Source: a virus. Taken from it: a DNA stretch of 64,000 bases. The notes below the pieces were generated by a model that saw only the letters and a list, made by a program, of their open reading frames with translations, searched no databases and was not told the origin of the DNA. The DNA lies in IMG/VR virus record IMGVR_UViG_3300025030_000039, positions 188,878 through 252,877 of that record, one strand, 5' to 3'. Below, piece by piece: positions 1,362 through 60,016 of the stretch. The position numbers and the translations under genes are program-made. Numbering within the stretch: position 1 is the stretch's first letter; each line of letters starts with the position of its first letter.

Positions 1362-1769
1362 TTACATAAAAGAAGATTGTGTTTCTTCTTTATCTATATT
1401 TTTATTTTTAATAATACTATTTATAATTTTTTTTTCTTCTAATTCTCTATTAGATTTTTTTCTAATACCATCAAAAGTTTGATATGGTGATACATCATCT
1501 CTTACTTTTCTATCTTTAGGATATTTATAATCTACATCTTTATGTGCATTAGAACTTCCACCTAATTTATCATCCCAAAACTTTTTAAAATCACTAAGGT
1601 TAGAATTAAAATATCTTATTTTACTTAAAATATCTTTATTTTCTAATCTAACATTTTCGTCTCCTTCTACTCTAAATTCTTCATATAATTTTTCAGTCTC
1701 TATTGCAGATAGACTATCTATAATCGACAATATGCGATTATAATCATTAAACTCAATTAGATTTTCCAT
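1362..1769 (-). CDS. hypothetical protein (135 aa)
   Basis: Track ORF, the last gene of the minus block before the divergent promoter region. Confidence 0.4.
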   Translation of the reverse strand: MENLIEFNDYNRILSIIDSLSAIETEKLYEEFRVEGDENVRLENKDILSKIRYFNSNLSDFKKFWDDKLGGSSNAHKDVDYKYPKDRKVRDDVSPYQTFDGIRKKSNRELEEKKIINSIIKNKNIDKEETQSSFM

Positions 1770-1780
1770 ATATTATTTTT

Positions 1781-1802
1781 AAAACTTTTTTATTATATTT
1801 AC
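1781..1802 (+). promoter_or_regulatory. conserved promoter-like motif, class A (AAAACTTTTTTATTATATTTAC), ~20 nt upstream of the ATG at 1823
   Basis: Near-identical 22-mers recur at 28761, 33451 and 43346, each 15-30 nt before the first ATG of a plus-strand gene run. This copy sits in the divergent intergenic region 1770-1822. Confidence 0.45.
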
Positions 1803-1822
1803 CCTTATTTAATTATATATTT

Positions 1823-11636: not shown

Positions 11637-11814
11637 AAAATTTTAAATTTATTATTTTATGGAAAATTAATATTTTGTTTAAATAAAATTTAATTAATTT
11701 AATCTTTATTTCAACATTAAATATTTTTTTAATTTTTTTAACATTGATTGTCCTAAGGCATTCATATTTAATTAATTATATATTATTATTTATATATTTA
11801 TGTTAGCAACAATA

Positions 11815-12183
11815 CTACAAACCGTACTTCGATTTAAGTTTTTCTAATTGCTCCAACTCAATCTTTTTAATTCTTTCCTTTTCTTGTCTATCTCGTTCAT
11901 CTTGTCTTTTTTGGTATTCAATTTCTTCTTGTTCACACGCTTGTTTGTATTCATTTTCAGAAATTAGACCCAAATCAACAAGTGGATGGTCGGTATTATC
12001 TTTACTATATTGGTTTATATTCACTTCATTTTTTGTGTATCCAAATCCTTCTGTAATATCATTAACAACCAATACTGTAAATGTGTTATCTGTAAATTTT
12101 AACCATAAATCGCCACAATCTAATTTCAAATCAGAGATTGTTTTTCCTTTCAATTCATTGATATTCTGTATTTCATTTTTCAT
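11815..12183 (-). CDS. hypothetical protein with a C-terminal charged coiled-coil (122 aa)
   Basis: Track ORF flanked by an 11-bp inverted repeat, TGTTAGCAACA at 11801-11811 and TGTTGCTAACA at 12215-12225. Confidence 0.45.
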   Translation of the reverse strand: MKNEIQNINELKGKTISDLKLDCGDLWLKFTDNTFTVLVVNDITEGFGYTKNEVNINQYSKDNTDHPLVDLGLISENEYKQACEQEEIEYQKRQDERDRQEKERIKKIELEQLEKLKSKYGL

Positions 12184-12237
12184 ATTATATAAATTAATCG
12201 TTTATAATCCGTACTGTTGCTAACACATTGTATATGT

Positions 12238-12310
12238 CGGTTTTGCCAATTGGCTTTTGTGCTTTTGTGCTTTGACTGAGAGTATGTGCGTGGCAAAACC
12301 GAACACATAC
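12238..12310 (-). other. GC-richer structured element with nested inverted repeats
   Basis: CGGTTTTGCCA (12238-12248) is the perfect reverse complement of TGGCAAAACCG (12291-12301). GTATGTG (12282-12288) and CACATAC (12304-12310) enclose the second arm. A CTTTTGTG tandem lies between them. The region is non-coding. Confidence 0.35.
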
Positions 12311-12340
12311 AACCATTCGTTATAAGTAATAAAATAAAAA

Positions 12341-12505
12341 CTACTTACTACTATTAATATCCTTAATCAAAATTTGAATTTCTTCATTTTTATTTTCTAA
12401 CTCTTTTTCAAATGCTTTTTGAAACTCAAACTTTTGTTCTTCACTTAACTCATTCAAATTTTGAATGTTAGTTTGTCTAATTTCTGCTTTAATTTTCTTT
12501 TCCAT
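12341..12505 (-). CDS. small hypothetical protein (54 aa, charged and helical), below the track cutoff
   Basis: Hand translation gives MEKKIKAEIRQTNIQNLNELSEEQKFEFQKAFEKELENKNEEIQILIKDINSSK with a TAG stop. It lies about 20 nt downstream of a minus-strand promoter-like motif. Confidence 0.35.
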   Translation of the reverse strand: MEKKIKAEIRQTNIQNLNELSEEQKFEFQKAFEKELENKNEEIQILIKDINSSK

Positions 12506-12522
12506 AATTTTACTGTTTTTAT

Positions 12523-12549
12523 TTTACATACTTATAACAACAAATATAA
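12523..12549 (-). promoter_or_regulatory. promoter-like motif on the minus strand, early-block variant (TTTGTTGTTATAAGTATGTAAAAT)
   Basis: The reverse complement is TTTGTTGTTATAAGTATGTAAAAT, about 20 nt before the ATG at 12505. The same motif recurs at 12900-12928, 15146-15173 and 18110-18135, and is related to the plus-strand TTTGTTATTATATTTA motif. Confidence 0.4.
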
Positions 12550-12589
12550 AACATTGCTGATGTAGTTTCTATTTATATTATACGTTTAA

Positions 12590-12655
12590 TTTCAAGTTTT
12601 GTTTCATTTATTTACATTCATGTTGCAACTTTTTATATTTGTAATCGTTATAGAT
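12590..12655 (-). repeat. ~65-bp element, inverted copy of 21940-22006
   Basis: The reverse complement of 12596-12643 matches 21951-21998 at 44 of 48 positions (ACAAATATAAAAAGTTGCAACATGAATGTAAATAAATGAAACAAAACT). Similarity extends a few bases on both sides. Confidence 0.55.
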
Positions 12656-12662
12656 AATAAAA

Positions 12663-12928: not shown

Positions 12929-12998
12929 AAATAAATCTTACTTTGTCTATTTTTTAATGAAAAGATTTACTTCTCATATTTGCAACCGTTAGGCATAA

Positions 12999-13190
12999 TT
13001 ATACTCTACCACTAAGGTAGTATTCTATTTCACTCTTACTAAAATCATCGGGCTTGTTTTTATAGTACTCCCTTAATTTTCCTTCGTGAACACCTTGTTC
13101 AAATGCCCATTTCATATCATCTAATGAATAACTACGCCTAACAAAGTATAAACGTAATGTTTTCAGTTTTTCAATCAATCTTTTTATCAT
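12999..13190 (-). CDS. hypothetical protein (63 aa)
   Basis: Track ORF. Confidence 0.4.
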   Translation of the reverse strand: MIKRLIEKLKTLRLYFVRRSYSLDDMKWAFEQGVHEGKLREYYKNKPDDFSKSEIEYYLSGRV

Positions 13191-18213: not shown

Positions 18214-18645
18214 TTAAATAAAATCATATTTCATAATTATCTTATTATCGATTTCTTTAACAACAGTCCATCCCATTTTTAAATGATATTCTTTTGCAAA
18301 AACTGTATCTAAAAATATAGTTTTATATCCTAATAATTTTGCATATTCAAATCTTTTTTCAGTTAACATCAATCCATATCCATTACCTCTATATTCTGGT
18401 TCAACCCATAACAATAAATTCCAGGGAGATATAGTCCTATCTATTTCATTAATAGTATCAAATAATCCACAACCTATAGGTTTATCATCTATTATCAATA
18501 CATAACAAACTGAATCAGATTCATTATTTAAATACCTTCTAATCTCACTTAAACTATATTCATCATCAACTTGCCAACGTTCTTTCATAATAGATGAAAC
18601 ATAATTAATATACATGTGAGTTAATTTTTCTATTTTAATTTCCAT
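18214..18645 (-). CDS. GNAT-family N-acetyltransferase
   Basis: VLIIDDKPIGCGLF and the WVEPEYRGNGYG (R/QxxGxG/A) acetyl-CoA-binding motif, followed by YAKLLGYKTIFLDT. Confidence 0.7.
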   Translation of the reverse strand: MEIKIEKLTHMYINYVSSIMKERWQVDDEYSLSEIRRYLNNESDSVCYVLIIDDKPIGCGLFDTINEIDRTISPWNLLLWVEPEYRGNGYGLMLTEKRFEYAKLLGYKTIFLDTVFAKEYHLKMGWTVVKEIDNKIIMKYDFI

Positions 18646-20066
18646 TCAAATTTATAATTGCCTGTTCCAAAACATCTATAATATCCCTTATCATGCATTA
18701 TCTCCACTTCAGTCATCAAGGAATCTGCTCCTTCTTTTACCAATTTATCTTTACGATATTTAAACCTATTCTCCCTAATTCCATCTACTACCCACCAATA
18801 ATTCAAACCAGTATGCACTATATATTCAAACCCTAATTTTGTATATAAATTATCTTGCTCATCAACCGTCCAATCACAATCTGCATAACTTACTACTCGT
18901 TCAGGTTTATACTCTTTAATAAAATATTTAAATAAACGACTGGCTCCACCAACAACCGAAGTATTTAATTTATTAGCAAACCGTAAAAGCTCCCATTCAT
19001 TTTCTTTAGCAACTTGATTTAAATTTTTACGTAAGGATCCGAAGGTCATTAATGATACTAACTCACCTTCATAATATAAACCTAATTTAATAGCAGCATT
19101 AGTATTGCCCTGTAAATGGTTCCTATTTAAAAATTCTCTACTATCACCAGAATTAACGGTTTTAATTACACATTTTCTAGCATACACTTTATCAGTAGAT
19201 AAATTTAATAAATTCTTTATTCTTGATTTTACTATATCTCTTTTGTTATACCAAACATCTTCCCATATATGTATTAAATTAATTCCCAATTCTTTGCATC
19301 TATTACTTTTATCTATATGATATTCTTTAGGTTTATTAAATTCATTATGCCAATATACTCCATTATGTTCAAATGCTATATTTTTATCTTCAATATAAAT
19401 ATCAAGTTCTCTATTTTTTAATTCTTTTTTAGAATTAATTCTAAATGGTTTTAAATAAATGTCTTTTATCCAATCTATTAATTCTATTTCAGAATTACTT
19501 TTTCCGTGATTAGGATTACATTTTAAACATGGATTAATATTTATATTTATTCTTCTATATAATAATTGAGAATCTATTATTGATATACTTTTACATTCAA
19601 CACATTCTATTTTTATTTTTTGTTGATCATCCCATTCTATTATTTTAATTTTATCTTTTAATTTTTCTTTAGCAAAAGGAAAATAATATTTATCTTTAAA
19701 ATAATTTGATTGTGTTATATGTTGTACTCCATATCTTTTTAGAACTGTTATTCTTGTTCTTTTTTCTTTTAAAACTATTGCACATTTTCTACTACAGCTA
19801 GAAGAATAACCAGGCATTATACCCATAAATTTAGATGAAGGTATTTTATTACCACATACTTCACATTTTGGAATTTCAGTTTTATCATGTAATGCATGAT
19901 AAAGTTTTTCTTTAAAAGACGTTAATTTTAGATTATTATTTATAGAATATTTTTCTATTTCTAATAATAGATTAGGATAATTATTTTTAAAAAATTCAAT
20001 TCTAGTAGTACTAGATGTAAGTTTTCCGTTTTTTATTAATATTTTATTTAAATCATTTGATAACAT
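18630..20066 (-). CDS. three-part fusion protein: N-terminal Cys clusters, DUF559/Vsr-like (PD-(D/E)XK-type) endonuclease core, C-terminal GNAT-like fold
   Basis: CEVCGNKIP...CSRKC Zn-ribbon-like clusters. ELDIYIEDKNIAFEHNGVYWHN....LGINLIHIWEDVW matches the DUF559 and very-short-patch-repair-like nuclease pattern. The C-terminal GLYYEGELVSLMTFGS...ELLRFA...VVGGASRLFKYFI...YTKLGF looks acyltransferase-like. Confidence 0.5.
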   Translation of the reverse strand: MLSNDLNKILIKNGKLTSSTTRIEFFKNNYPNLLLEIEKYSINNNLKLTSFKEKLYHALHDKTEIPKCEVCGNKIPSSKFMGIMPGYSSSCSRKCAIVLKEKRTRITVLKRYGVQHITQSNYFKDKYYFPFAKEKLKDKIKIIEWDDQQKIKIECVECKSISIIDSQLLYRRINININPCLKCNPNHGKSNSEIELIDWIKDIYLKPFRINSKKELKNRELDIYIEDKNIAFEHNGVYWHNEFNKPKEYHIDKSNRCKELGINLIHIWEDVWYNKRDIVKSRIKNLLNLSTDKVYARKCVIKTVNSGDSREFLNRNHLQGNTNAAIKLGLYYEGELVSLMTFGSLRKNLNQVAKENEWELLRFANKLNTSVVGGASRLFKYFIKEYKPERVVSYADCDWTVDEQDNLYTKLGFEYIVHTGLNYWWVVDGIRENRFKYRKDKLVKEGADSLMTEVEIMHDKGYYRCFGTGNYKFEWKLK

Positions 20067-20104: not shown

Positions 20105-20983
20105 TTAAACATAATCACCTTCCTGTATTTCAGGTAACTCTCCCATCTTATTTCTATACAATAATGTAATCATCGGTAAATTTACCCATCTTAAATCCTT
20201 CTCAACTAATTGATTTTTAATACGTTCAAGAATGTCCCTGTCACTTCCCCGAGGTTCGCTGCGTACTGGTGAAGTAAGAAATTGCTCTCTTACATTTCTA
20301 TATCTTAAATCCTTAAATTCCTTCAAATCCCAACAAAATGTTGAATGCCAACTTTCTGTTATATGAGAAATATTATTCCCCCCTATATGTTTAACAACTC
20401 CTCTTTCTGGTCTACAATATGTATCTGTTCCTGTTTTATATCTTTTTATTATAGCTGTCGAAGAAAAGAATTTTGCTTTAGGATATCTAGTTATTGCCTT
20501 AGCCATATATTCTAGATGGTTAGGAAGCCATATATCATCGTGATCTAAACGACAAATAAAATTTACACCATCCCTTACTGCTTTATCAATAGCTATATTT
20601 GCAGCAACATCAGACCCTGAATGCCAAAGATCTGCCCCCCTGAATCGGATCCTTTCACCTGGCAGTTCCAGATTTTCATATACGATTTTTGAGTATTCGA
20701 ATGATTCAACTAAAGGCTTGATTTCATTATCACTTTCATAGTCATCACCCATTAGATAAATTTTGTAGTTTTGGTATGATTGGTTTTTGATAGATTGAAG
20801 AGCTTCTTGTAATCTCATAGGAGTAGTACCATCGCTTCTTTTATAGGTAGCAACTATAATACCAAATCTTATATTTGTTCTGTGTTCTATTTTTTTGAAT
20901 TTATCTATTTTATCCGATAAATCATTTTGTTTATTTTGATCTTCTTGATTAAAATTTTGAAAATTTTCTAATAAGGTGTCCAT
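20105..20983 (-). CDS. family 2 glycosyltransferase (GT-A fold)
   Basis: FGIIVATYKR, the QSYQNYKIYLMGDDYE acidic motif and the DHDD DxD-type motif. Confidence 0.7.
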   Translation of the reverse strand: MDTLLENFQNFNQEDQNKQNDLSDKIDKFKKIEHRTNIRFGIIVATYKRSDGTTPMRLQEALQSIKNQSYQNYKIYLMGDDYESDNEIKPLVESFEYSKIVYENLELPGERIRFRGADLWHSGSDVAANIAIDKAVRDGVNFICRLDHDDIWLPNHLEYMAKAITRYPKAKFFSSTAIIKRYKTGTDTYCRPERGVVKHIGGNNISHITESWHSTFCWDLKEFKDLRYRNVREQFLTSPVRSEPRGSDRDILERIKNQLVEKDLRWVNLPMITLLYRNKMGELPEIQEGDYV

Positions 20984-21664: not shown

Positions 21665-21892
21665 ATGCAGACAGATTCTAAAAACCAAATAGGCAATGAA
21701 GCTAATACCATGTTATGTGAAGTGTATTTTGTAAAAAAAGGTAAAAAGTTTATGAAAGGACATGGATATAGCACATTAAAAGGATATAAATTTAGTTGGA
21801 CTTTCAATAAAAACGAAGCAAGAAAAATGGAATATAGCACAGCAAATAGTTTAGCAATTTCAAGCGGTGGTGTATTGAAACAACAACTATAA
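21665..21892 (+). CDS. hypothetical protein (75 aa)
   Basis: Track ORF. Preferred over the antisense 21643-21900 frame, which is F/L-rich and junk-like. Confidence 0.35.
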   Translation: MQTDSKNQIGNEANTMLCEVYFVKKGKKFMKGHGYSTLKGYKFSWTFNKNEARKMEYSTANSLAISSGGVLKQQL

Positions 21893-21939
21893 ATGGTCAA
21901 TTAGTAGAAATTCCACGCTACGACCCTCTTTATTATTGT

Positions 21940-22006
21940 GGCTAACGGTTGCAAATATAAAACGTTGCAACATGAATGTAATTAAATGAAACAAAACTTG
22001 AAAAAA
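21940..22006 (+). repeat. ~65-bp element, inverted copy of 12590-12655; contains CTAACGGTTGC and GTTGCAAC
   Basis: GGCTAACGGTTGCAAATATAAAACGTTGCAACATGAATGTAATTAAATGAAACAAAACTTGAAA. It lies about 90 nt upstream of the RlmN-like gene. Confidence 0.55.
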
Positions 22007-22090
22007 TGCTCGAATAACCACGGATGCCCAACTGTTTTATACCATATGTTAGCGGTAGTGATTTTTTAACTTATTAATATTTAACGATTT

Positions 22091-22978
22091 ATGAAAACAA
22101 AAAGATTTGATAGTTCAGAAGGTAATGTTTGGAAATATGTATTTGACTTTGAAAATGCAGTTGCCGAAGCGGTACTTTACAAATATGAAAACTTTTACAA
22201 AAGGACTGTACTTTGCGTGAGTGTGCAAAGTGGATGCCCTGTTGGTTGCAAATTTTGCGGAACTGGCAAAAAGTTTATTAGAAACCTTACAAACTTAGAA
22301 ATAGTTGCACAGGTTAAACATTGCTTAAAAGACATGAATATTGAAAATGTTAATTCGGCTAGTGATCGTTTCCAAATAATGTTTATGAGTATGGGTGAAC
22401 CTACTTTAAATATTGATAATGTAATAACGGCAATAAAGGATTTAAACAACTTATATCCAAATGCTGAATTACTTATTTCAACTATGGGGGCAAAAAACAA
22501 TACCGCTTTTGAAAAACTGTTAAAAGTAAGTATTGAAATACAAAAGGTTGGTTTGCAATTTTCAGTACATGAAGCATTTGAAGAAAAAAGAAACCAATTA
22601 ATATCATTTAAAAATAAATTGAATTTACGTGAAATGCGTGATTTTGGCATTGAGTGGAATAGGCAAACAAAACGCCCTGTATATGTGAATTATTGCATTG
22701 GAGAAACAAACCAAAGCAATGAAGAGATGGATAGGCTTAAAGACTTATTTAGCCCTGCTCTTTTCAATTTTACATTTTCGGTTATTTGCTCTTCTGATGA
22801 AAACATGAAAGATAAAGGATATAGAGAACTGAACAAGATAAACACAATTACTTCATCATTTGTTGAATGTGGTTATAATGTTCGAGTTTTCGACCCTGCT
22901 GGTCAAGATGATATTGGGGGCGGGTGCGGACAATTATGGTATGTACAAAACTGGATGCGTGACCATCATTACCGCTAA
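22091..22978 (+). CDS. RlmN/Cfr-family radical SAM RNA methyltransferase-like protein
   Basis: SVQSGCPVGCKFCGTG is the CX3CX2C radical-SAM motif in an RlmN-like context. FMSMGEPTLN and the C-terminal DIGGGCGQLWY resemble the conserved RlmN/Cfr Cys motifs. Confidence 0.8.
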   Translation: MKTKRFDSSEGNVWKYVFDFENAVAEAVLYKYENFYKRTVLCVSVQSGCPVGCKFCGTGKKFIRNLTNLEIVAQVKHCLKDMNIENVNSASDRFQIMFMSMGEPTLNIDNVITAIKDLNNLYPNAELLISTMGAKNNTAFEKLLKVSIEIQKVGLQFSVHEAFEEKRNQLISFKNKLNLREMRDFGIEWNRQTKRPVYVNYCIGETNQSNEEMDRLKDLFSPALFNFTFSVICSSDENMKDKGYRELNKINTITSSFVECGYNVRVFDPAGQDDIGGGCGQLWYVQNWMRDHHYR

Positions 22979-23095
22979 CATAAATATATAAATAATAATA
23001 TATAATTAATTAAATATGAATGCCTTAGGACAATCAATGTTAATAAAATTTAAAAAATATTTAATGTTGAAAAATTATTTAATTTTATAAAATAA

Positions 23096-23746
23096 ATGGA
23101 ATATAACGATAAAAATGGATTAGAATTAATAGCTGAATTAGCTAAAGTTAGTACTGATAAGCTAATGAATTTAACTATTTTAATACTAAGTAGTAATAAA
23201 TTGACTTCTATACCAAAAGAGATAGGATTACTTACTAATTTAAGAGAATTACGTTTATCCAATAATGAATTAACATCTGTACCAAAAGAGATAGGAAATT
23301 TGGTAAATTTACAACATTTACATTTAAATAGTAATAAATTAACTTCTATACCATTAGAAATATTTAATCTTATAAAATTAACTAAATTATTATTATATAG
23401 TAATAAATTGACTTCTATACCAAAAGAGATAGGAAATTTAATAAATTTACAGCGTTTATTTTTAAGTTATAATGCATTGACTTCATTACCTAAAGAGATA
23501 GGAAATTTGGTAAATTTATGTGAATTACTATATACAAATACTAAGATGGTTTCAATACCTATTGAGTTAGTTAAGTTAAATGTTTTTCCAAAGTTAGATT
23601 TATCAGAATTAACTCTGCCGTTATGGGCTGAATTATTTCAAGAAGATAAATTTAAAGTTATTAAGCATAAAGATTTTCCAAAAGATTTAAGAAATCATCC
23701 ATGGTTTATTGATGTAGCTTATGCAGATGATTTTGGACTTATTTAA
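23096..23746 (+). CDS. leucine-rich repeat protein (bacterial-type LRR)
   Basis: At least six tandem 23-aa repeats of the form L(T)SIPKEIGNLVNLQ.L.L..N. Confidence 0.8.
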   Translation: MEYNDKNGLELIAELAKVSTDKLMNLTILILSSNKLTSIPKEIGLLTNLRELRLSNNELTSVPKEIGNLVNLQHLHLNSNKLTSIPLEIFNLIKLTKLLLYSNKLTSIPKEIGNLINLQRLFLSYNALTSLPKEIGNLVNLCELLYTNTKMVSIPIELVKLNVFPKLDLSELTLPLWAELFQEDKFKVIKHKDFPKDLRNHPWFIDVAYADDFGLI

Positions 23747-24296: not shown

Positions 24297-25445
24297 TTAT
24301 TCTATATTTGGATAATTAAAAAGTTTATTTTGATAGTTTTTAAGAATAAGATTTCCATTTTCATCTTTACCTTGATAGTATTCAGGAAGAATAGGAATTT
24401 TACCTCCTCCACCTGGAGCATCAATTACAAAGGTAGGTATAGCATAGCCTGAAGTATTACCTCTAAGATTAAACATTATTTCTATTCCTTTTTCGATTGA
24501 GGTTCTAAAATGTTCTGAACCTAGAATTGGATCACATTGATATAAATAGTACGGTCTAACTCTAACTTTAAGTAATTCATGAAATAATTTTTTAAGAATT
24601 AATGAGTCATCATTAATTCCTTTAAGTAATACCGTTTGAGATCCTAATGGAATTCCAGCATTTGCTAATAAGTTGCAAGCTTGTTTTACTTCAGGAGTAA
24701 TTTCATCTGGATGAGTAAAATGTATACTCATAAAAAGAGGATGATATTTTTGTAGAATATTTATTAGTTTTTTGTTTATTCTTTGTGGAAGTATAACTGG
24801 AACTTTGGTTCCAATTCTTATTATTTCAATATGTTTGATATTTCTAATAGTTGATAATAAATAATCAAGTTGTGAATCAGGTAAAGTTAATGGATCACCG
24901 CCAGAAATTATTACATCTCTTATTTCAGTATGTTCTCGCAAATAATTAAAAGCAGATTCCCAATTATTTAAATTTTTTTCTTTTGCTACAATATGAGAAC
25001 GTGTACAATATCTACAATATGTTGCACAAAAATCTGTTGCTAAAAATAAAACTCTATCTGGATATCGATGTATAATATTAGGTACCGGATTATCTTCATT
25101 TTCATTTAATGGATCTGATAATTCACCCTCATTTATATAATATTCATTTACAATCGGAATAACGCTTTTTCTTAATGATTGCAATGAATTATTTTTATCT
25201 ATTAAGCTAGAATAATAAGGTGTTATTCTTATAGGTAATGAATCTTTATTATTATCATTTATAGATTTTTCATTATCATTTAAATTAAAAAAATCATTTA
25301 ATTGTTTAATGTTTGTAATACTATTTTTTATTTGCCATCGCCAGTCATTCCACTGTTCTTTTGATGTATTAGGAAAATTTTCTTTTAAATATTCTATTGA
25401 TTTTTCACTAGGTTCTATAAGTGAGATATCATCATTTTTGTCCAT
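24297..25445 (-). CDS. KamA-family radical SAM aminomutase-like protein (lysine 2,3-aminomutase / EpmB family)
   Basis: N-terminal WNDWRWQIKN, LATDFCATYCRYCTRS (CX3CX2C in the KamA context) and C-terminal GGGGK. Confidence 0.8.
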   Translation of the reverse strand: MDKNDDISLIEPSEKSIEYLKENFPNTSKEQWNDWRWQIKNSITNIKQLNDFFNLNDNEKSINDNNKDSLPIRITPYYSSLIDKNNSLQSLRKSVIPIVNEYYINEGELSDPLNENEDNPVPNIIHRYPDRVLFLATDFCATYCRYCTRSHIVAKEKNLNNWESAFNYLREHTEIRDVIISGGDPLTLPDSQLDYLLSTIRNIKHIEIIRIGTKVPVILPQRINKKLINILQKYHPLFMSIHFTHPDEITPEVKQACNLLANAGIPLGSQTVLLKGINDDSLILKKLFHELLKVRVRPYYLYQCDPILGSEHFRTSIEKGIEIMFNLRGNTSGYAIPTFVIDAPGGGGKIPILPEYYQGKDENGNLILKNYQNKLFNYPNIE

Positions 25446-28145: not shown

Positions 28146-28742
28146 ATGTTAGCAATAGCTCCACCTAATAAAAAAGAGATTATAAACTATTCTAATTGGT
28201 TAGAAAAAAGAAAAATACCTTTTCATATACTTAATGAATATGATAATATAAATAGTTATTCTATGCTTATGTTATGTGGAGGTCCTGATATAGGAAAAAA
28301 TAAATTAAGAGATGAATTAGAAATAAAATGGTTTAATGATGCTTATAGAAAAATTCCTGTAATTGGAATTTGTAGAGGATTACAATTAGTTAATATTATT
28401 CTTAATGGTACTCTTTATGAAGATTTATCTGATGAATTAATAATGCATTCGACTGATAAAAATTCTATTTCTAATGAACCTTCTTCAAATTTAAATTCAA
28501 GTTTTCATAATATTATATACAATAATTTTAAAATTGAAGTTAATTCTAGACATCATCAGGGAATTAAAGTATTAGGTGAAGGATTAAAACCTTTAGCATA
28601 TAGTGAAGGAGATAATTTAATAGAAATGATTAAAGGATTTAAATCTTTATTTGTACAATGGCACCCTGAAAGAGAAGAAGTATATGAAATGCCAGCAGAA
28701 AGAATCGTATCATTGTGGATAGAAAAGTTTATGTTACTTTAA
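28146..28742 (+). CDS. class I glutamine amidotransferase-like protein, peptidase C26 / gamma-glutamyl hydrolase type
   Basis: MLMLCGGPD, the GICRGLQ catalytic Cys elbow, SRHHQG and VQWHPE His/Glu motifs. Confidence 0.7.
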   Translation: MLAIAPPNKKEIINYSNWLEKRKIPFHILNEYDNINSYSMLMLCGGPDIGKNKLRDELEIKWFNDAYRKIPVIGICRGLQLVNIILNGTLYEDLSDELIMHSTDKNSISNEPSSNLNSSFHNIIYNNFKIEVNSRHHQGIKVLGEGLKPLAYSEGDNLIEMIKGFKSLFVQWHPEREEVYEMPAERIVSLWIEKFMLL

Positions 28743-28760
28743 TTCTAAATTTTTATTTTT

Positions 28761-28782
28761 AAAACTTTTTTATTATATTTAC
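28761..28782 (+). promoter_or_regulatory. class A promoter-like motif (AAAACTTTTTTATTATATTTAC)
   Basis: Identical core to 1781-1802. It sits 18 nt before the ATG at 28800. Confidence 0.45.
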
Positions 28783-28799
28783 TTTTAAAATAAAAAAAT

Positions 28800-33326: not shown

Positions 33327-33450
33327 AAGAATAAAATTTGAAATTTATATTTTTGAATTATATGTAAATTTAATAAAAAAGTTTAAAAAATAAAAAAATT
33401 TTAATACATTCTTTTTCAAAAAATTATTTGATAACTAATATTTTAAATTT

Positions 33451-33472
33451 AAAACTTTATTATTATATTTAC
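33451..33472 (+). promoter_or_regulatory. class A promoter-like motif (AAAACTTTATTATTATATTTAC)
   Basis: One mismatch to the 1781 and 28761 copies. It sits 20 nt before the ATG at 33493, at the start of the 33.5-40.3 kb plus run. Confidence 0.45.
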
Positions 33473-33492
33473 TTTTAATTATATAAAAATTA

Positions 33493-41840: not shown

Positions 41841-41968
41841 TGCTTAAAATATTAATTTATTTTATATATCATCAAGCCTTTATAGTTTTATATAAAATTT
41901 AGTTATATTTTTAAATTAAAAACTTTAATATTATATTTAATTATTAAATTTATATAAATTATAACAAA

Positions 41969-43168: not shown

Positions 43169-43345
43169 AATGATTGAAATAGGAAAAATTTATACTTATA
43201 AGGATGGTAGATCTGTTATAGTTATACAAAAAAGTGATAAACAATTAAGAGCAGAAGTATCAGATGATATAGAAAACAAATGGAATCCATTTTGGATATA
43301 CTATTCTGATTTAATTTTTATACTTTAAATAAAATTTTTAAATTT

Positions 43346-43367
43346 AAAACTTTTTTATTATATTTAC
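43346..43367 (+). promoter_or_regulatory. class A promoter-like motif (AAAACTTTTTTATTATATTTAC)
   Basis: It sits about 30 nt before the ATG at 43399. Confidence 0.45.
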
Positions 43368-43398
43368 ATATTATTTAATTTAAATCTGTTATTATACT

Positions 43399-47312: not shown

Positions 47313-47321
47313 ATTTTAAAA

Positions 47322-47368
47322 TTACTTTAAATCTTATTTTTATTTTAAACCCTTTGTTATTATATTTA
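47322..47368 (+). repeat. 47-bp direct repeat, copy 1, containing a class B promoter-like motif (CCTTTGTTATTATATTTA)
   Basis: Identical to 47984-48030 (TTACTTTAAATCTTATTTTTATTTTAAACCCTTTGTTATTATATTTA). Confidence 0.6.
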
Positions 47369-47388
47369 TTTTAAATAATAATAATTAT

Positions 47389-47958: not shown

Positions 47959-47983
47959 GTAAGAAAATAATATCGATTATTAA

Positions 47984-48030
47984 TTACTTTAAATCTTATT
48001 TTTATTTTAAACCCTTTGTTATTATATTTA
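47984..48030 (+). repeat. 47-bp direct repeat, copy 2, containing a class B promoter-like motif
   Basis: Identical to 47322-47368. It sits about 28 nt before the ATG at 48056. Confidence 0.6.
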
Positions 48031-48055
48031 CCTATAATTATTAAAATAAATTTTT

Positions 48056-51482: not shown

Positions 51483-51749
51483 TTATACAAACTTTAAAAT
51501 AGTATTGTAAAATTCTATTTAAAATATTTTTTTCTTAAAATATTTGTTAATATATTTATTTAATAATTAATATTAATACAATAACATGGTACATTCATAT
51601 AAAAATTACAAATCTAGTTTAAAGATAAGTATTAAAAATAATAAATCCAATACTTAATTAAAAACAATATTACCGATTTTTATATTAATATCTTTGTTAT
51701 TAAATTTACCTATTAATTTAAAATATTTATTAACTTTAATTTTTTAATC

Positions 51750-52679: not shown

Positions 52680-52785
52680 GTTTACATTTTGGACCAGTCT
52701 TTTCAATTAAAATAATTAAATTTTACCGGTAAAACTTATTAACATTTACAAAAAATTAATGTTAATAAATTTATTTTTTGCATTA

Positions 52786-52810
52786 AATATTTGTTATTAT
52801 TTTTATATTA
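52786..52810 (+). promoter_or_regulatory. class C promoter-like motif (AATATTTGTTATTATTTTTATATTA) upstream of the sigma factor gene
   Basis: A ~30-bp block identical to 53723-53747. It sits about 40 nt before the ATG at 52852. Confidence 0.45.
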
Positions 52811-52851
52811 ATAAAATTAAATAATACAATAAACTAAAAAATTACAAAGCT

Positions 52852-53685: not shown

Positions 53686-53722
53686 TCTTTTTTAAGTAAG
53701 AATAAATAATTTTATCTTATAA

Positions 53723-53747
53723 ATATTTGTTATTATTTTTATATTAA
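53723..53747 (+). promoter_or_regulatory. class C promoter-like motif, second copy
   Basis: Identical to 52786-52810. It sits 15 nt before the ATG at 53763. Confidence 0.45.
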
Positions 53748-53762
53748 ATAAAAAATTAATCT

Positions 53763-54476: not shown

Positions 54477-54674
54477 CTGTAATTTTTTATAATCAAAATT
54501 ATTTTGATAACAGGATATTTTTATAATAGGGATATTAAAAATTTAATCCCTTTGTATATTCCGGTAATACTTGGTATACGCGATATTCAGGATAATAATA
54601 CCTTATATCCAATAATTACATTAACCCTAGTTAAATATTGTATAAAAATACTTTAGATAAAAATTTTTATTTTT

Positions 54675-54695
54675 AAACCTTTGTTATTAAATTTA
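54675..54695 (+). promoter_or_regulatory. class B promoter-like motif (AAACCTTTGTTATTAAATTTA) with no protein-coding gene downstream
   Basis: Same family as 47347 and 48009. The next ~430 nt lack any ORF longer than 25 codons. Confidence 0.4.
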
Positions 54696-54699
54696 TAAA

Positions 54700-55032
54700 A
54701 TTAAAAATTATAAAATAGTTCATTGAAATGAAACATTTGTGATCCTAACGGTTGGTATTTTAATATAATAAGTATTAAAATATGATACAATATGAAAATA
54801 TTGGACAGTGCGAAACTGAATGAGTTAGGCAATATAAACATCAAATTGATTTTGCTGTGGATGAATATTGAAGCTGTTGACTGTCATGAAAAGATAAATG
54901 ATAAAAATTGCTTACACACCTAATTGTAATATTGGGTATGATTTTTAATTTTTAATAATTATCGCTAAAGTGTAAATGTTCCATATACTATGTATTAAGG
55001 TCGTTTAGCGATAGTTATTTTTATTAATTTTG
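54700..55032 (+). ncRNA. candidate non-coding RNA (~330 nt) between a promoter-like motif and a hairpin/T-run
   Basis: An ORF-free interval bounded upstream by the class B motif. Downstream is a 10-bp perfect inverted repeat, TATCGCTAAA (54960-54969) and TTTAGCGATA (55004-55013), followed by TTATTTTTATTAATTTT. It contains a CCTAACGGTTGG operator-like motif at 54744-54755. Confidence 0.3.
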
Positions 55033-55502: not shown

Positions 55503-55551
55503 AACAAAATCCTGGATTAAATTAAATACTTTAAAATTTATTTTTATCTTT

Positions 55552-55573
55552 GGCCTTTTGTTATTATATTTAT
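55552..55573 (+). promoter_or_regulatory. class B promoter-like motif (GGCCTTTTGTTATTATATTTAT)
   Basis: It sits about 28 nt before the ATG at 55602. Confidence 0.45.
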
Positions 55574-55601
55574 TTAATTAAATTTAAAATTAATTCTAAA
55601 C

Positions 55602-58899: not shown

Positions 58900-59109
58900 A
58901 TGGAAAAATGTACTAGATGTGGTAAATGTTGCTTAGCTGCACCGTGTTGTTTAATTCCAATAGGAAAAGAAGTATATGAAAAAAAGGATGGTAAAAAAAT
59001 ACATAAATGTAAATTTTTTACATTCGATAAAAATCTTGCAAAATGCAGAGCATATAAATTAGTAAATAATGGAGGATTTTGTACATCTTCTATAAAAATA
59101 AAAGTTTAA
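58900..59109 (+). CDS. YkgJ/UPF0153-type CxxCxxCC putative Fe-S or zinc-chelating protein
   Basis: CTRCGKCCLAAPCC matches the CxxCGxCC signature of the UPF0153 family. There are additional Cys downstream. Confidence 0.5.
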   Translation: MEKCTRCGKCCLAAPCCLIPIGKEVYEKKDGKKIHKCKFFTFDKNLAKCRAYKLVNNGGFCTSSIKIKV

Positions 59110-59181
59110 ATACTTTAAATAAAATTTTTTCTATAATTTAAAAGTTATTATATTTATATAACGATTAAATAATTATAAAAT

Positions 59182-59958: not shown

Positions 59959-59994
59959 GTTTAATTAAATACTTTATTAAACATTTTTAAATCT

Positions 59995-60016
59995 GGTCCT
60001 TTGTTATTAAATTTAT
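59995..60016 (+). promoter_or_regulatory. class B promoter-like motif (GGTCCTTTGTTATTAAATTTAT)
   Basis: It sits about 60 nt before the ATG at 60077. Confidence 0.4.

What the first reader, a model, noticed from the sequence alone, without database searches (positions are those of the whole stretch)
22091..22978. Phage-encoded RlmN/Cfr-family radical SAM methyltransferase
The CX3CX2C motif sits in the exact RlmN context (VSVQSGCPVGCKFCGTG). The two conserved methyl-relay cysteines (MGEPTLN region and C-terminal GGGCGQL) are present, so the protein looks catalytically complete. It is shorter than bacterial RlmN (295 aa). RlmN/Cfr enzymes C-methylate A2503 of 23S rRNA and A37 of tRNAs, and Cfr-type C8 methylation confers multi-antibiotic resistance. 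A viral copy could retune the host ribosome or tRNA pool, or modify phage RNA. The ~65-bp conserved element (21940-22006) lies about 90 nt upstream.
Basis: partly seen in the sequence, partly recalled or inferred. Interest (0 to 1): 0.65.

Follow-up and report, generated by a model that had tools for sequence, protein, structure and literature searches.

The report
Short phage RlmN-like radical SAM methylase
The gene is a real, intact radical-SAM methylase related to the rRNA/tRNA enzymes RlmN and Cfr, but it belongs to a large unstudied, mostly phage-borne branch that lacks their RNA-anchoring domain, sits repeatedly inside NAD+ salvage operons and next to tRNA and RNA-repair genes, and so probably has a different substrate, not an antibiotic-resistance role.

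Summary
The ORF at 22091-22978 (+, 295 aa) is real and under strong purifying selection (dN/dS 0.033 against a 97%-identical copy). It carries the full RlmN/Cfr catalytic set: C42 (=RlmN C118), C49/C53/C56, E26, MGEP and C279 (=C355). The AF2 model (pLDDT 90.5) matches RlmN and Cfr best.

It is not an RlmN or Cfr orthologue:
- It scores 84-113 bits against NCBIfam cut-offs of 290-633.
- It lacks the N-terminal HhH2 RNA-anchoring domain.
- It replaces RNA-contact residues that are invariant in the canonical enzymes (R344->F, N307->T/S, R206/R207->A/E, and most of the 3'-phosphate cage).
- It falls in a separate clade of ~290-aa proteins found in phages, prophages and a few chromosomes, and not on plasmids.

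Across 102 dereplicated lineages:
- 32 have NAD+ salvage genes within 10 kb (NAPRTase, PncA, NadE, NMNAT, Prs, NrtR/Nudix), often interleaved in one operon.
- 30 have tRNA genes within 10 kb.
- 18 have RNA-repair genes within 10 kb.

In this 462-kb phage the gene is a stand-alone, horizontally acquired cassette bounded by two repeats.

Best reading: RlmN-type chemistry on a new adenine-nucleotide substrate, either an NAD-family nucleotide or tRNA. The substrate is not settled. I found no literature on this clade.

The parts
22091..22978 (+). ORF of 295 aa: short (HhH2-less) RlmN/Cfr-like class A radical SAM methylase
   Evidence: ORF; RlmN/Cfr family hits, all below cut-offs; AF2 pLDDT 90.5; Foldseek top hits RlmN 3rfa/4pl1, 6fz6, Cfr 9p0p; dN/dS 0.033
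22214..22216 (+). Codon of C42, the equivalent of RlmN C118 / Cfr C105 (the cysteine that resolves the adduct)
   Evidence: present in all 21-22 query-clade sequences sampled and nearly invariant (>=90%) in the 32-sequence alignment A4
22235..22258 (+). CPVGCKFC: the C49-X3-C53-X2-C56 motif that binds the [4Fe-4S] cluster
   Evidence: invariant
22391..22402 (+). M101-G-E-P104, the SAM-binding 'GEP' motif (this stretch contains no cysteine)
22925..22927 (+). Codon of C279 in GGGCGQL, the equivalent of RlmN C355 / Cfr C338 (methyl-carrying cysteine)
22004..22090 (+). 87-nt leader that travels with the gene (about 90% identical in the unrelated phage contig L011). No significant RNA structure.
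21933..22003 (+). It forms the left boundary of the acquired cassette. An inverted copy lies at 12590-12660 and a partial copy at 12969-13003.
22974..23093 (+). Downstream 120-nt repeat that starts at the stop codon and forms the right boundary of the cassette. An inverted copy lies at 11688-11807 (92%).
11688..12660 (-). Second locus framed by the same two repeats but holding unrelated small ORFs (54 aa and 122 aa). This shows that the repeats are cassette or intergenic framing elements of this phage, not part of the rSAM gene.

Best explanation
What it is, with about 0.9 confidence in this first part: an intact class A (RlmN/Cfr-type) radical-SAM C-methyltransferase. It belongs to a large, uncharacterised, mainly phage- and prophage-borne sister clade that has no N-terminal HhH2 RNA-anchoring domain.

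How it most likely works (the residues and the fold are shown; the chemistry is inferred from the family):
1. One SAM methylates C279.
2. A second SAM is cleaved at the C49/C53/C56 [4Fe-4S] cluster.
3. The resulting Cys-S-CH2 radical adds to an sp2 carbon of an adenine ring.
4. C42 resolves the covalent adduct.

Substrate (inferred, and the weak step): not 23S A2503, and not tRNA A37 read in the canonical way. The clade has lost the tertiary-structure anchor. It has lost the basic residues that hold the H90/backbone region. It has also lost most of the polar cage that holds the phosphate 3' of the target adenosine.

The gene is embedded again and again in NAD+ salvage operons (pncA-pncB/nadV-nadD-nadE-prs-nrtR/Nudix). 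In other lineages it lies in tRNA gene arrays or RNA heal-and-seal modules. My best guess is therefore that it C-methylates an adenosine that is not followed by a 3' phosphodiester. That would be an NAD-family dinucleotide or an ADP-ribose-type derivative, or alternatively a 3'-terminal adenosine of RNA. It would act as an accessory of NAD+-centred counter-defence or salvage metabolism.

In this phage the gene is a stand-alone, horizontally acquired cassette about 300 kb from the phage's own NAD and tRNA genes.
For: Catalytic set, fold and selection:
- The catalytic residues are conserved.
- AF2 pLDDT is 90.5. Residues 1-48 are all beta-strand, so there is no helical N-terminal domain. The best structural matches are RlmN and Cfr, at E 8e-17 to 1e-12.
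- dN/dS is 0.033.

Distinct clade:
- Scores are 84-113 bits against cut-offs of 290-633.
- The NJ tree separates the short clades from RlmN + Cfr + PRK14464.
- 71 clusters at 50% identity match with E<1e-30.

Loss of RNA contacts, mapped from the Cfr-rRNA cryo-EM description (PMC13001441):
- R344->F in 22/22 query-clade sequences.
- N307->T (MAFFT) or S (HMMER).
- R206/R207->A/E.
- A231->Q in 22/22.
- The 3'-phosphate cage S103/S151/S153/S187 of Cfr (T116/N172/V174/T209 in RlmN) becomes V40/Q95/M97/L128.
- Median pI is 6.0 against 8.9 for canonical enzymes.

NAD link, in 153 loci reduced to 102 lineages:
- NAPRTase occurs in 24 lineages, 19 of them within 3 kb, with a median gap of -19 bp.
- NrtR-type Nudix 14, PncA 13, NadE 12, NMNAT 8, Prs 8.
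- Gene orders are interleaved and variable, for example L160 NrtR>PncA>NAPRT>NadE>rSAM in a chromosomal setting next to AcrB/HlyD. Other examples are L168, L104, L109, L133 and Saccharibacteria contigs.
- NAD contexts are scattered over the whole rSAM tree.
- Baseline for comparison: NadV is present anywhere in only 22-33% of medium and jumbo phage genomes (PMC9503650). Adjacency within 3 kb by chance should therefore be of the order of 1%. That figure is my rough estimate.

Fusions, which are weak evidence:
- rSAM-NUDIX followed by NAPRTase and NMNAT.
- rSAM fused to an HD domain of dGTPase type in a more distant short clade.
Against: - Every characterised member of the superfamily acts on RNA. 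No C-methylated NAD or ADP-ribose is known to me.
- RlmN-type enzymes are slow and use two SAM per turnover. That fits a macromolecule or a low-abundance signal better than a millimolar metabolite pool.
- 49 of 102 lineages, this window included, show no NAD, tRNA or RNA-repair gene within 10 kb.
- 30 of 102 lineages have tRNA genes nearby, and in several the gene sits inside the tRNA array. Phage ANB28 has RtcB and tRNAs, but no NAD salvage gene in the 50 kb around the gene.
- The NUDIX fusion is a single cluster found on one contig.
- Residue mapping rests on alignments at 22-28% identity. The N307 and C-terminal-loop positions differ by one or two residues between MAFFT and HMMER.
- E. coli RlmN and Cfr are themselves not basic (pI 6.6 and 7.0).
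- No substrate was tested.
Confidence: 0.4

Rival explanations
1. It is a tRNA methylase. The enzyme would C-methylate an internal adenine of the anticodon loop (A37 or a neighbour) in phage-encoded or host tRNAs. This would either supply m2A to the burst of phage tRNAs, or make tRNAs (including repaired ones) resistant to host anticodon nucleases. That would be analogous to Hen1 methylation in bacterial Pnkp/Hen1 RNA repair.
For: - All known relatives act on RNA, and the beta' extension plus the radical SAM core that hold the target nucleotide are retained.
- 30 of 102 lineages have tRNA genes within 10 kb. The gene lies inside tRNA arrays in L047-L057, ANB28/JGB6 and L079.
- Neighbours include T4 Rnl1-type RNA ligase (8 lineages), Thg1-like (6), metallophosphoesterase (6), AAA_33 kinase (5) and CCA-adding enzyme (4). 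RtcB is present in ANB28.
- This phage encodes 26 tRNAs, including Gln, Glu, His, Asp and Arg(ACG) species.
Against: - RlmN needs the whole tRNA body, and a bare anticodon stem-loop is not a substrate (PMC5130265). [quoted passage not shown] That domain is absent here.
- The contacts to the target's ribose and to the 3' phosphate are replaced by hydrophobic residues.
- This reading does not explain operon-level embedding in NAD salvage clusters, including chromosomal ones.
- In this window the phage tRNAs lie about 300 kb away.
Confidence: 0.3
2. It is a functional RlmN or Cfr equivalent that methylates 23S rRNA A2503 (C2 or C8). [quoted passage not shown] This is the first reader's reading.
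For: The best sequence and fold matches are RlmN and Cfr, and the catalytic residues are intact. Several databases auto-annotate homologues as 23S rRNA (adenine2503-C2)-methyltransferase.
Against: - Scores are 3- to 6-fold below the RlmN and Cfr cut-offs, and the protein sits in a separate clade.
- The HhH2 domain that anchors the H90-H92 junction is absent, and the H90-binding arginines are replaced by A/E.
- RlmN and Cfr act on naked 23S rRNA during assembly. My own inference is that little of this substrate is made in a lytic infection.
- There are no close relatives among 72,556 plasmids; the best hits are 28-32% identical.
Confidence: 0.07
3. It methylates adenine carbons in DNA, as part of a phage DNA hypermodification or anti-restriction system.
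For: In this window the gene lies near a GT2 glycosyltransferase, a GNAT, a 478-aa protein with weak Mom-like and REase hits, a lysine-2,3-aminomutase-like radical SAM protein and a class-I amidotransferase. DNA methylases are occasional neighbours elsewhere.
Against: The gene is an independently acquired cassette. Its 97%-identical copy in L011 shares no other gene with this window, so the local neighbours here are incidental. None of them recurs across the 102 lineages. No DNA-binding domain is present.
Confidence: 0.05

Closest known systems
RlmN (E. coli YfgB; dual-specificity 23S rRNA m2A2503 / tRNA m2A37 methyltransferase; TIGR00048, PDB 3RFA/5HR7)
   Same: It shares the partial TIM-barrel radical SAM core with the beta' extension. 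It shares the CX3CX2C cluster, E105, the GEP motif and the two relay cysteines C118/C355. It is the best structural match, with TM-score 0.76-0.78 normalised to the query.
   Different: - Sequence identity is about 22-25%, and the score is 105 bits against a cut-off of 290.
- The roughly 75-residue HhH2 N-terminal domain is missing.
- R344, N307, T116, R206/R207 and T209 are replaced by F, T/S, V, A/E and L.
- It is phage-borne and linked to NAD salvage and RNA-repair genes rather than being a housekeeping gene.
Cfr (23S rRNA m8A2503 methyltransferase; TIGR04432/NF000424; PDB 9P0P)
   Same: It has the same fold and cysteine pair. Cfr is the best PDB sequence hit (2.5e-16).
   Different: - It scores 84-88 bits against cut-offs of 530-550.
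- It is not in the Cfr clade.
- It has no N-terminal domain.
- The serine cage for the U2504 phosphate and the H90 contacts are not conserved.
- It is not found on resistance plasmids.
Other HhH2-less 'short RlmN-like' clades
   Same: Examples are PHROG 24834, the radical SAM protein of Pseudomonas phage 201phi2-1, and BFVD entry A0A6J5RTK8. They share a length of about 280-300 aa, the absence of the N-terminal domain, and the R344->F and A231->Q substitutions. They occur in phage or mobile-element contexts.
   Different: They are only 29-38% identical to the query clade. All are uncharacterised, and one of them is fused to an HD phosphohydrolase domain. Their neighbourhoods were only spot-checked.
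Phage NAD+ reconstitution pathways (NARP1, NARP2, NARP3) and NadV/NadM-type salvage
   Same: They share the genomic company: NAPRTase/NadV, Prs, NMNAT and Nudix, plus PncA and NadE in the loci studied here.
   Different: No radical SAM component is mentioned in the NARP1/NARP2 preprint (word count only), the NARP3 paper, or the viral NAD-ADPr and jumbo-phage surveys. The link rests on gene neighbourhood only. In this window the gene is not next to the phage's NAD genes.

Membership tests
Class A radical SAM methylases (RlmN/Cfr superfamily) | CX3CX2C [4Fe-4S] motif within a partial TIM-barrel radical SAM core | tested here: met
   C49/C53/C56 are invariant. Pfam Radical_SAM scores 30.2 bits against a cut-off of 29.5. 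The AF2 model matches RlmN and Cfr structures.
Class A radical SAM methylases (RlmN/Cfr superfamily) | Two additional conserved cysteines (RlmN C118 and C355) for the methyl relay and adduct resolution | tested here: met
   C42 and C279 align with C118/C105 and C355/C338 in HMMER and MAFFT alignments. Both are present in 21-22 of the 21-22 query-clade sequences sampled.
Class A radical SAM methylases (RlmN/Cfr superfamily) | Methylation of an sp2 carbon through a methylcysteine-derived radical | not testable with these tools
   This needs anaerobic enzymology.
RlmN (TIGR00048 / PRK11194 equivalog) | Score at or above the curated model cut-off | tested here: not met
   105 bits against 290 (TIGR00048), and 78.8 against 633 (NF008396).
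RlmN (TIGR00048 / PRK11194 equivalog) | N-terminal HhH2 accessory domain that binds RNA tertiary structure | tested here: not met
   Only 41 residues precede C42, against 117 in E. coli RlmN. Residues 1-48 of the model are beta-strands only. The role of the domain is taken from PMC13001441.
RlmN (TIGR00048 / PRK11194 equivalog) | Conserved contacts to the target nucleotide and flanking backbone (R344, N307, T116, R206/R207) | tested here: not met
   These are F267, T228 or S230, V40 and A125/E126. The replacements are conserved within the clade. The alignment is uncertain by 1-2 residues at N307 and in the C-terminal loop.
RlmN (TIGR00048 / PRK11194 equivalog) | m2A at 23S A2503 and tRNA A37 | not testable with these tools
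   This needs LC-MS or primer extension.
Cfr (TIGR04432 / NF000424) | Score at or above the curated cut-off, and placement in the Cfr clade | tested here: not met
   84.1 against 550 and 88.1 against 530. The NJ tree places Cfr with the canonical long forms, far from the query.
Cfr (TIGR04432 / NF000424) | [quoted passage not shown] | tested here: not met
   No plasmid hit exceeds 32% identity in 72,556 plasmids. The resistance phenotype itself was not testable.
HhH2-less short RlmN-like clade (unnamed; phage/prophage) | About 280-320 aa, about 40 residues before the first relay Cys, and signature motifs QIMFMSMGEP, GLQFSxHE and FDPAGQDDIGGGCGQLW | tested here: met
   Alignments A3 and A4. Homologues 45-51% identical occur in cultured phages JGB6, ANB28, BUCTxx99, Arash, Ahp1 and Vibrio 496E54-1.
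Anti-phage defence system component (PADLOC) | Match to a defence-system model | tested here: not met
   No PADLOC hit at E<=0.01.

The most novel reading that the evidence does not exclude
The short RlmN-like clade is a radical-SAM C-methylase of a free adenine nucleotide of the NAD family (NAD+, NaAD, ADP-ribose, or an NAD- or ATP-derived immune signal). It would add an undescribed step to the NAD+ salvage and reconstitution operons of phages and some bacteria. Possible roles are making a C2- or C8-methyl-adenine NAD analogue, or neutralising an ADPR-type molecule. That would be the first class A radical SAM methylase with a non-RNA substrate.
Probability: 0.25. Interest if true: 0.9.

Novelty: new variant of a known kind. 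Interest (0 to 1): 0.62.

Why it matters
RlmN and Cfr are, to my knowledge, the only characterised class A radical SAM methylases, and both act on RNA. This gene represents a sister clade of thousands of sequences that keeps the chemistry but has shed the RNA-anchoring domain and several substrate contacts. The clade is spread by phages as a mobile cassette.

Its repeated operon-level association with NAD+ salvage genes, and with tRNA and RNA-repair modules, places it in the two areas where abortive-infection defences strike: NAD+ depletion and tRNA cleavage. None of the NARP or viral NAD-network papers I could read mentions it.

If the substrate is new, it extends radical SAM methylation chemistry and adds a component to phage counter-defence metabolism. 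There is also a practical point. Automatic labels such as '23S rRNA (adenine2503-C2)-methyltransferase', or flags as a Cfr-like resistance gene in viromes, are probably wrong for this clade.

Tried and rejected
- Rfam gathering scan of the window: no hits.
- ARAGORN on the window: no tRNA.
- Sigma-70 promoter and intrinsic-terminator scan of 21850-23150: fewer hits than in shuffles, and nothing on the + strand upstream of the gene.
- RNA fold of the upstream element plus leader: z = 0.55, not structured.
- PADLOC: no hit for the gene or for three neighbours.
- Plasmid search: only Cfr, RlmN and PRK14464-type hits at 32% identity or less.
It was rerun with alignment A4.
- The single-sequence viral locus search gave only 6 loci. 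It was rerun with an alignment.
- The NUDIX fusion as Rosetta-stone evidence: a follow-up search showed it is a single cluster on one contig, so I down-weighted it.
- Local neighbours in this window as functional partners: rejected, because the 97%-identical copy in L011 shares no other gene with the window and DNA homology stops exactly at the two repeats.
- NAD genes in the early 50 kb of phage ANB28: none found.
- Literature searches for phage RlmN/Cfr-like enzymes, for radical SAM in NARP or NrtR contexts, and in the jumbo-phage and viral NAD-ADPr surveys: nothing relevant. PubMed id 27081063 (RlmN-tRNA structure) is not held.
Full report
OBSERVATION

The window is bases 388074-452073 of LR756500.1, an unannotated 462-kb 'uncultured phage' genome. 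The ORF at 22091-22978 (+) is exactly as described: 295 aa, with VLCVSVQSGCPVGCKFCGTG near the N-terminus and GGGCGQLWYVQ near the C-terminus.

It is a real gene.
- NCBIfam hits to RlmN/Cfr-family models have E-values from 1e-32 to 1e-19.
- PDB sequence hits are Cfr 9P0P (2.5e-16) and RlmN 3RF9 (2.5e-15).
- Thousands of homologues exist.
- Against a 97%-identical environmental copy (L011), dN/dS is 0.033.

The 'MGEPTLN region' holds no cysteine. The first relay cysteine is C42 in VLCVSVQ, which aligns with RlmN C118 / Cfr C105. C279 aligns with C355/C338.

WHAT THE PROTEIN IS

All residues needed for class A radical SAM methylation are present and conserved in the clade. These are C42, C49/C53/C56, E26 (=E105), the M-G-E-P motif and C279.

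An AlphaFold2 model built on a 32-sequence alignment is confident (mean pLDDT 90.5, pTM 0.89). Its best matches in the PDB are:
- RlmN (3RFA/4PL1, E 8e-17, TM 0.76-0.78);
- the Sphaerobacter RlmN-like protein 6FZ6;
- Cfr 9P0P.
The next radical SAM folds come ten orders of magnitude later.

The superfamily assignment and 'catalytically complete' therefore both stand.

WHY IT IS NOT AN RlmN OR A Cfr

(i) Scores. Every curated model is missed by a wide margin.

| Model | Score (bits) | Cut-off (bits) |
|---|---|---|
| PRK14464 | 113 | 422 |
| TIGR00048 (RlmN) | 105 | 290 |
| Cfr models | 84-88 | 530-550 |

(ii) Architecture. Only 41 residues precede C42, against 117 in E. coli RlmN and 104 in Cfr. 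In the model, residues 1-48 are beta-strands only. This region is the beta' extension without the four-helix HhH2 domain. According to the Cfr-rRNA cryo-EM preprint, that domain anchors the junction of H90/H91/H92. The authors say that, 'like in RlmN', it carries the positively charged RNA-binding region (PMC13001441). RlmN needs more than an anticodon stem-loop (PMC5130265).

(iii) Phylogeny. A neighbour-joining tree of 103 sequences separates several short clades from one group that holds RlmN, Cfr, PRK14464 and the other 340-370-aa forms. No support values were computed.

(iv) Substrate contacts. I mapped the contacts listed in the Cfr preprint onto the alignment.

| Canonical residue (RlmN / Cfr) | Conservation in 17 canonical sequences | Query clade |
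|---|---|---|
| R344 / R327 | 17/17 | F (22/22) |
| N307 / N288 | 17/17 | T by MAFFT; S230 by HMMER |
| R206, R207 (bind H90) | R in 12/17 and 9/17 | A, E |
| A231 | 15/17 | Q (22/22) |
| K345, R347 | variable (K in 7/17; R in 6/17, K in 6/17) | D/N, A |

The four side chains that cage the phosphate 3' of the target adenosine are also largely lost.

| Enzyme | Cage residues |
|---|---|
| Cfr | S103, S151, S153, S187 |
| RlmN | T116, N172, V174, T209 |
| Query clade | V40, Q95, M97, L128 |

These four positions are anchored by the invariant Cys, GEP and IST motifs, so their alignment is reliable. The C-terminal-loop positions are less certain.

The clade is also neutral to acidic. Its median pI is 6.0, against 8.9 for canonical sequences. 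E. coli RlmN and Cfr are themselves near neutral, so this point is soft.

All short clades share R344->F and A231->Q, so the split from RlmN/Cfr is old.

WHERE THE CLADE LIVES

- Homologues 44-51% identical occur in cultured phages of Xanthomonas, Stenotrophomonas, Salmonella (Arash), Aeromonas and Vibrio.
- IMG/VR holds at least 290 relatives.
- Only 89 relatives turn up in one genome each of 185,579 species. Many of these are on MAG contigs or in prophages. One example is an SPbeta-like prophage of Paenibacillus sophorae, where the gene lies next to a Gad2 homologue.
- None is on plasmids.
- There is no PADLOC match.
- BFVD's best structural matches are unannotated phage proteins, including one from Pseudomonas phage 201phi2-1.

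GENE NEIGHBOURHOODS

I called ORFs in 153 loci (up to 10 kb of flank each side), clustered the proteins by BLASTP, and dereplicated the loci at 80% rSAM identity into 102 lineages. I then named the recurrent clusters with Pfam.

NAD+ metabolism genes are the most frequent neighbours.

| Neighbour | Lineages |
|---|---|
| NAPRTase family | 24 (19 within 3 kb; median gap -19 bp) |
| Nudix with NrtR winged helix | 14 |
| PncA-type isochorismatase | 13 |
| NAD synthase | 12 |
| NMN/NaMN adenylyltransferase | 8 |
| Prs | 8 |
| A second Nudix | 6 |
| NADAR | 4 |

Gene orders vary and the rSAM gene is interleaved:
- L160: NrtR>PncA>NAPRT>NadE>rSAM;
- L104: PncA>NAPRT>rSAM>NadE;
- L109: Nudix>rSAM>NadE>NMNAT;
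- L059: PncA>rSAM>NadE;
- Saccharibacteria contigs: <NAPRT<PncA >rSAM <NrtR<NadE.

L160 is chromosomal, because it is flanked by HlyD/AcrB efflux genes. Several Saccharibacteria loci lie near MetRS and TatD genes.

A second theme is RNA.

| Neighbour | Lineages |
|---|---|
| tRNA genes within 10 kb | 30 of 102 |
| T4 Rnl1-type ligase | 8 |
| Thg1-like | 6 |
| Metallophosphoesterase | 6 |
| AAA_33 kinase | 5 |
| CCA-adding enzyme | 4 |

In the viral set, 137 tRNA genes occur in 1.5 Mb, and the gene lies inside the arrays in L047-L057, ANB28/JGB6 and L079.

NAD, tRNA and repair contexts are interspersed across the rSAM tree. 49 lineages show none of them.

For scale, NadV occurs anywhere in only 22-33% of medium and jumbo phage genomes (PMC9503650). 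Adjacency within 3 kb in 19% of lineages is far above the roughly 1% I would expect by chance. That 1% is my own rough estimate, not a permutation test.

Two fusions point towards nucleotides. One is rSAM-NUDIX followed by NAPRTase and NMNAT. The other is rSAM-HD/HD_assoc in a remoter short clade. The NUDIX fusion is a single cluster found on one contig, so I give it little weight.

THIS PHAGE'S COPY

The gene has 33% G+C in a 24% G+C window.

The L011 copy is 97% identical in protein and 90% in DNA, yet L011 shares no other gene with the window. DNA homology runs from 22004 to 22979. That is exactly the interval between the upstream repeat (21933-22003) and the downstream repeat (22974-23093).

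The same two repeats, inverted, frame an unrelated pair of small ORFs at 11688-12660. It shows no sigma-70 match on the coding strand and no significant fold.

I reassembled the whole genome. The phage has 26 tRNAs and a tmRNA at 61-119 kb. It also has an NAPRTase (45-46 kb), NadE (78 kb), a PncA-like gene (74 kb) and NADAR (114 kb). All of these lie about 300 kb from the methylase.

The local neighbours are a GT2 glycosyltransferase, a GNAT, an LRR protein, a KamA-like radical SAM protein and an amidotransferase. None of them recurs elsewhere, so I treat them as incidental.

HOW IT MOST LIKELY WORKS

Shown: the residues and the fold of an RlmN-type methylase.

Inferred from the family:
1. SAM methylates C279.
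2. A second SAM is cleaved at the cluster.
3. The methylene radical adds to an adenine carbon.
4. C42 resolves the adduct.

Inferred from the lost contacts and the gene company: the substrate is not A2503, nor A37 read in the canonical manner.

I rank the readings as follows.

| Reading | Confidence |
|---|---|
| An adenosine without a 3' phosphodiester (NAD-family dinucleotide or ADPR derivative, or a 3'-terminal adenosine), serving NAD+-centred salvage or counter-defence | 0.40 |
| An internal anticodon-loop adenine of phage or host tRNA | 0.30 |
| Canonical A2503 | 0.07 |
| DNA | 0.05 |

That suits macromolecules or rare signals better than a bulk cofactor. The main weakness of the tRNA reading is that it leaves the chromosomal NAD operons unexplained.

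LITERATURE

I found no paper that treats this clade. None of the following mentions RlmN or a radical SAM partner:
- the NARP1/NARP2 preprint (judged from the search word counts only);
- the NARP3 paper;
- the viral NAD-ADPr survey;
- the jumbo-phage survey;
- a 2026 RNA-modification compendium.
The searched library is incomplete, so this shows only that nothing turned up there.

VERDICT

The family-level call is right, but the proposed function is not supported. The gene is a member of an unstudied, mobile, HhH2-less variant of the RlmN/Cfr methylases. The variant has a strong and previously unreported genomic link to NAD+ salvage and to tRNA and RNA-repair modules. Interest 0.62; novelty: new variant of a known kind.

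Noticed in passing
window 21933-22003 / 22974-23093 and 12590-12660 / 11688-11807: Two different repeats (71 nt at 89% and 120 nt at 92%) frame two unrelated gene cassettes in opposite orientation. For the methylase cassette, homology to another phage stops exactly at the repeats. They look like cassette-exchange or intergenic framing elements of this phage.
   Followed up: partly
window 24297-25445 (-): A second radical SAM protein (382 aa) of the lysine-2,3-aminomutase/EpmB type (Pfam LAM_C 4.8e-16 and Radical_SAM). It lies 1.3 kb downstream of the methylase. It has no PADLOC hit, and its function in a phage is unknown.
   Followed up: partly
window 18630-20066 (-): A 478-aa protein with weak, below-threshold hits to REase_MTES_1575 and to the Mom family. 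It lies next to a GNAT (18214-18645) and a GT2 glycosyltransferase (20105-20983). This may be a nucleic-acid or surface modification cluster.
   Followed up: no
window 23096-23746 (+): A leucine-rich-repeat protein (216 aa) built from 69-nt tandem units (23158-23571), which is unusual in a phage.
   Followed up: no
window 1754-1808, 28734-28788, 33424-33478, 41907-41939, 43311-43373, 47313-47385, 47975-48047, 51510-51569, 52750-52821, 53704-53752, 54648-54702, 55517-55589, 59108-59173, 59960-60016: A recurring AT-rich intergenic motif (core ...TTTGTTATTATATTTA...) lies upstream of many + strand genes. It is probably this phage's own promoter type.
   Followed up: no
LR756500.1 record 61428-118821 (outside the window; assembled from L181-L189): The phage carries 26 tRNA genes, a tmRNA (tag GNNAEMRMAA) and a tRNA with a CUA anticodon (record 110652-110720). 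The CUA tRNA hints at amber-codon suppression or recoding.
   Followed up: no
LR756500.1 record about 44.9-46.0 kb, 73.8-74.5 kb, 77.9-78.7 kb and 113.7-114.2 kb (outside the window): The phage encodes its own NAPRTase, a PncA-like protein, NadE and a NADAR-domain protein. This is a Preiss-Handler-type NAD+ salvage set that differs from the described NARP1-3 pathways.
   Followed up: partly
L004 10944-12759; L177 8873-10028: A PAPS_reduct-family protein lies one to two genes downstream of short RlmN-like genes in two different clades: an SPbeta-like Paenibacillus prophage and an unrelated phage contig. This may be another recurrent partner.
   Followed up: no
window 28146-28742 (+): A class-I glutamine amidotransferase / Peptidase_C26 protein (198 aa).
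   Followed up: no
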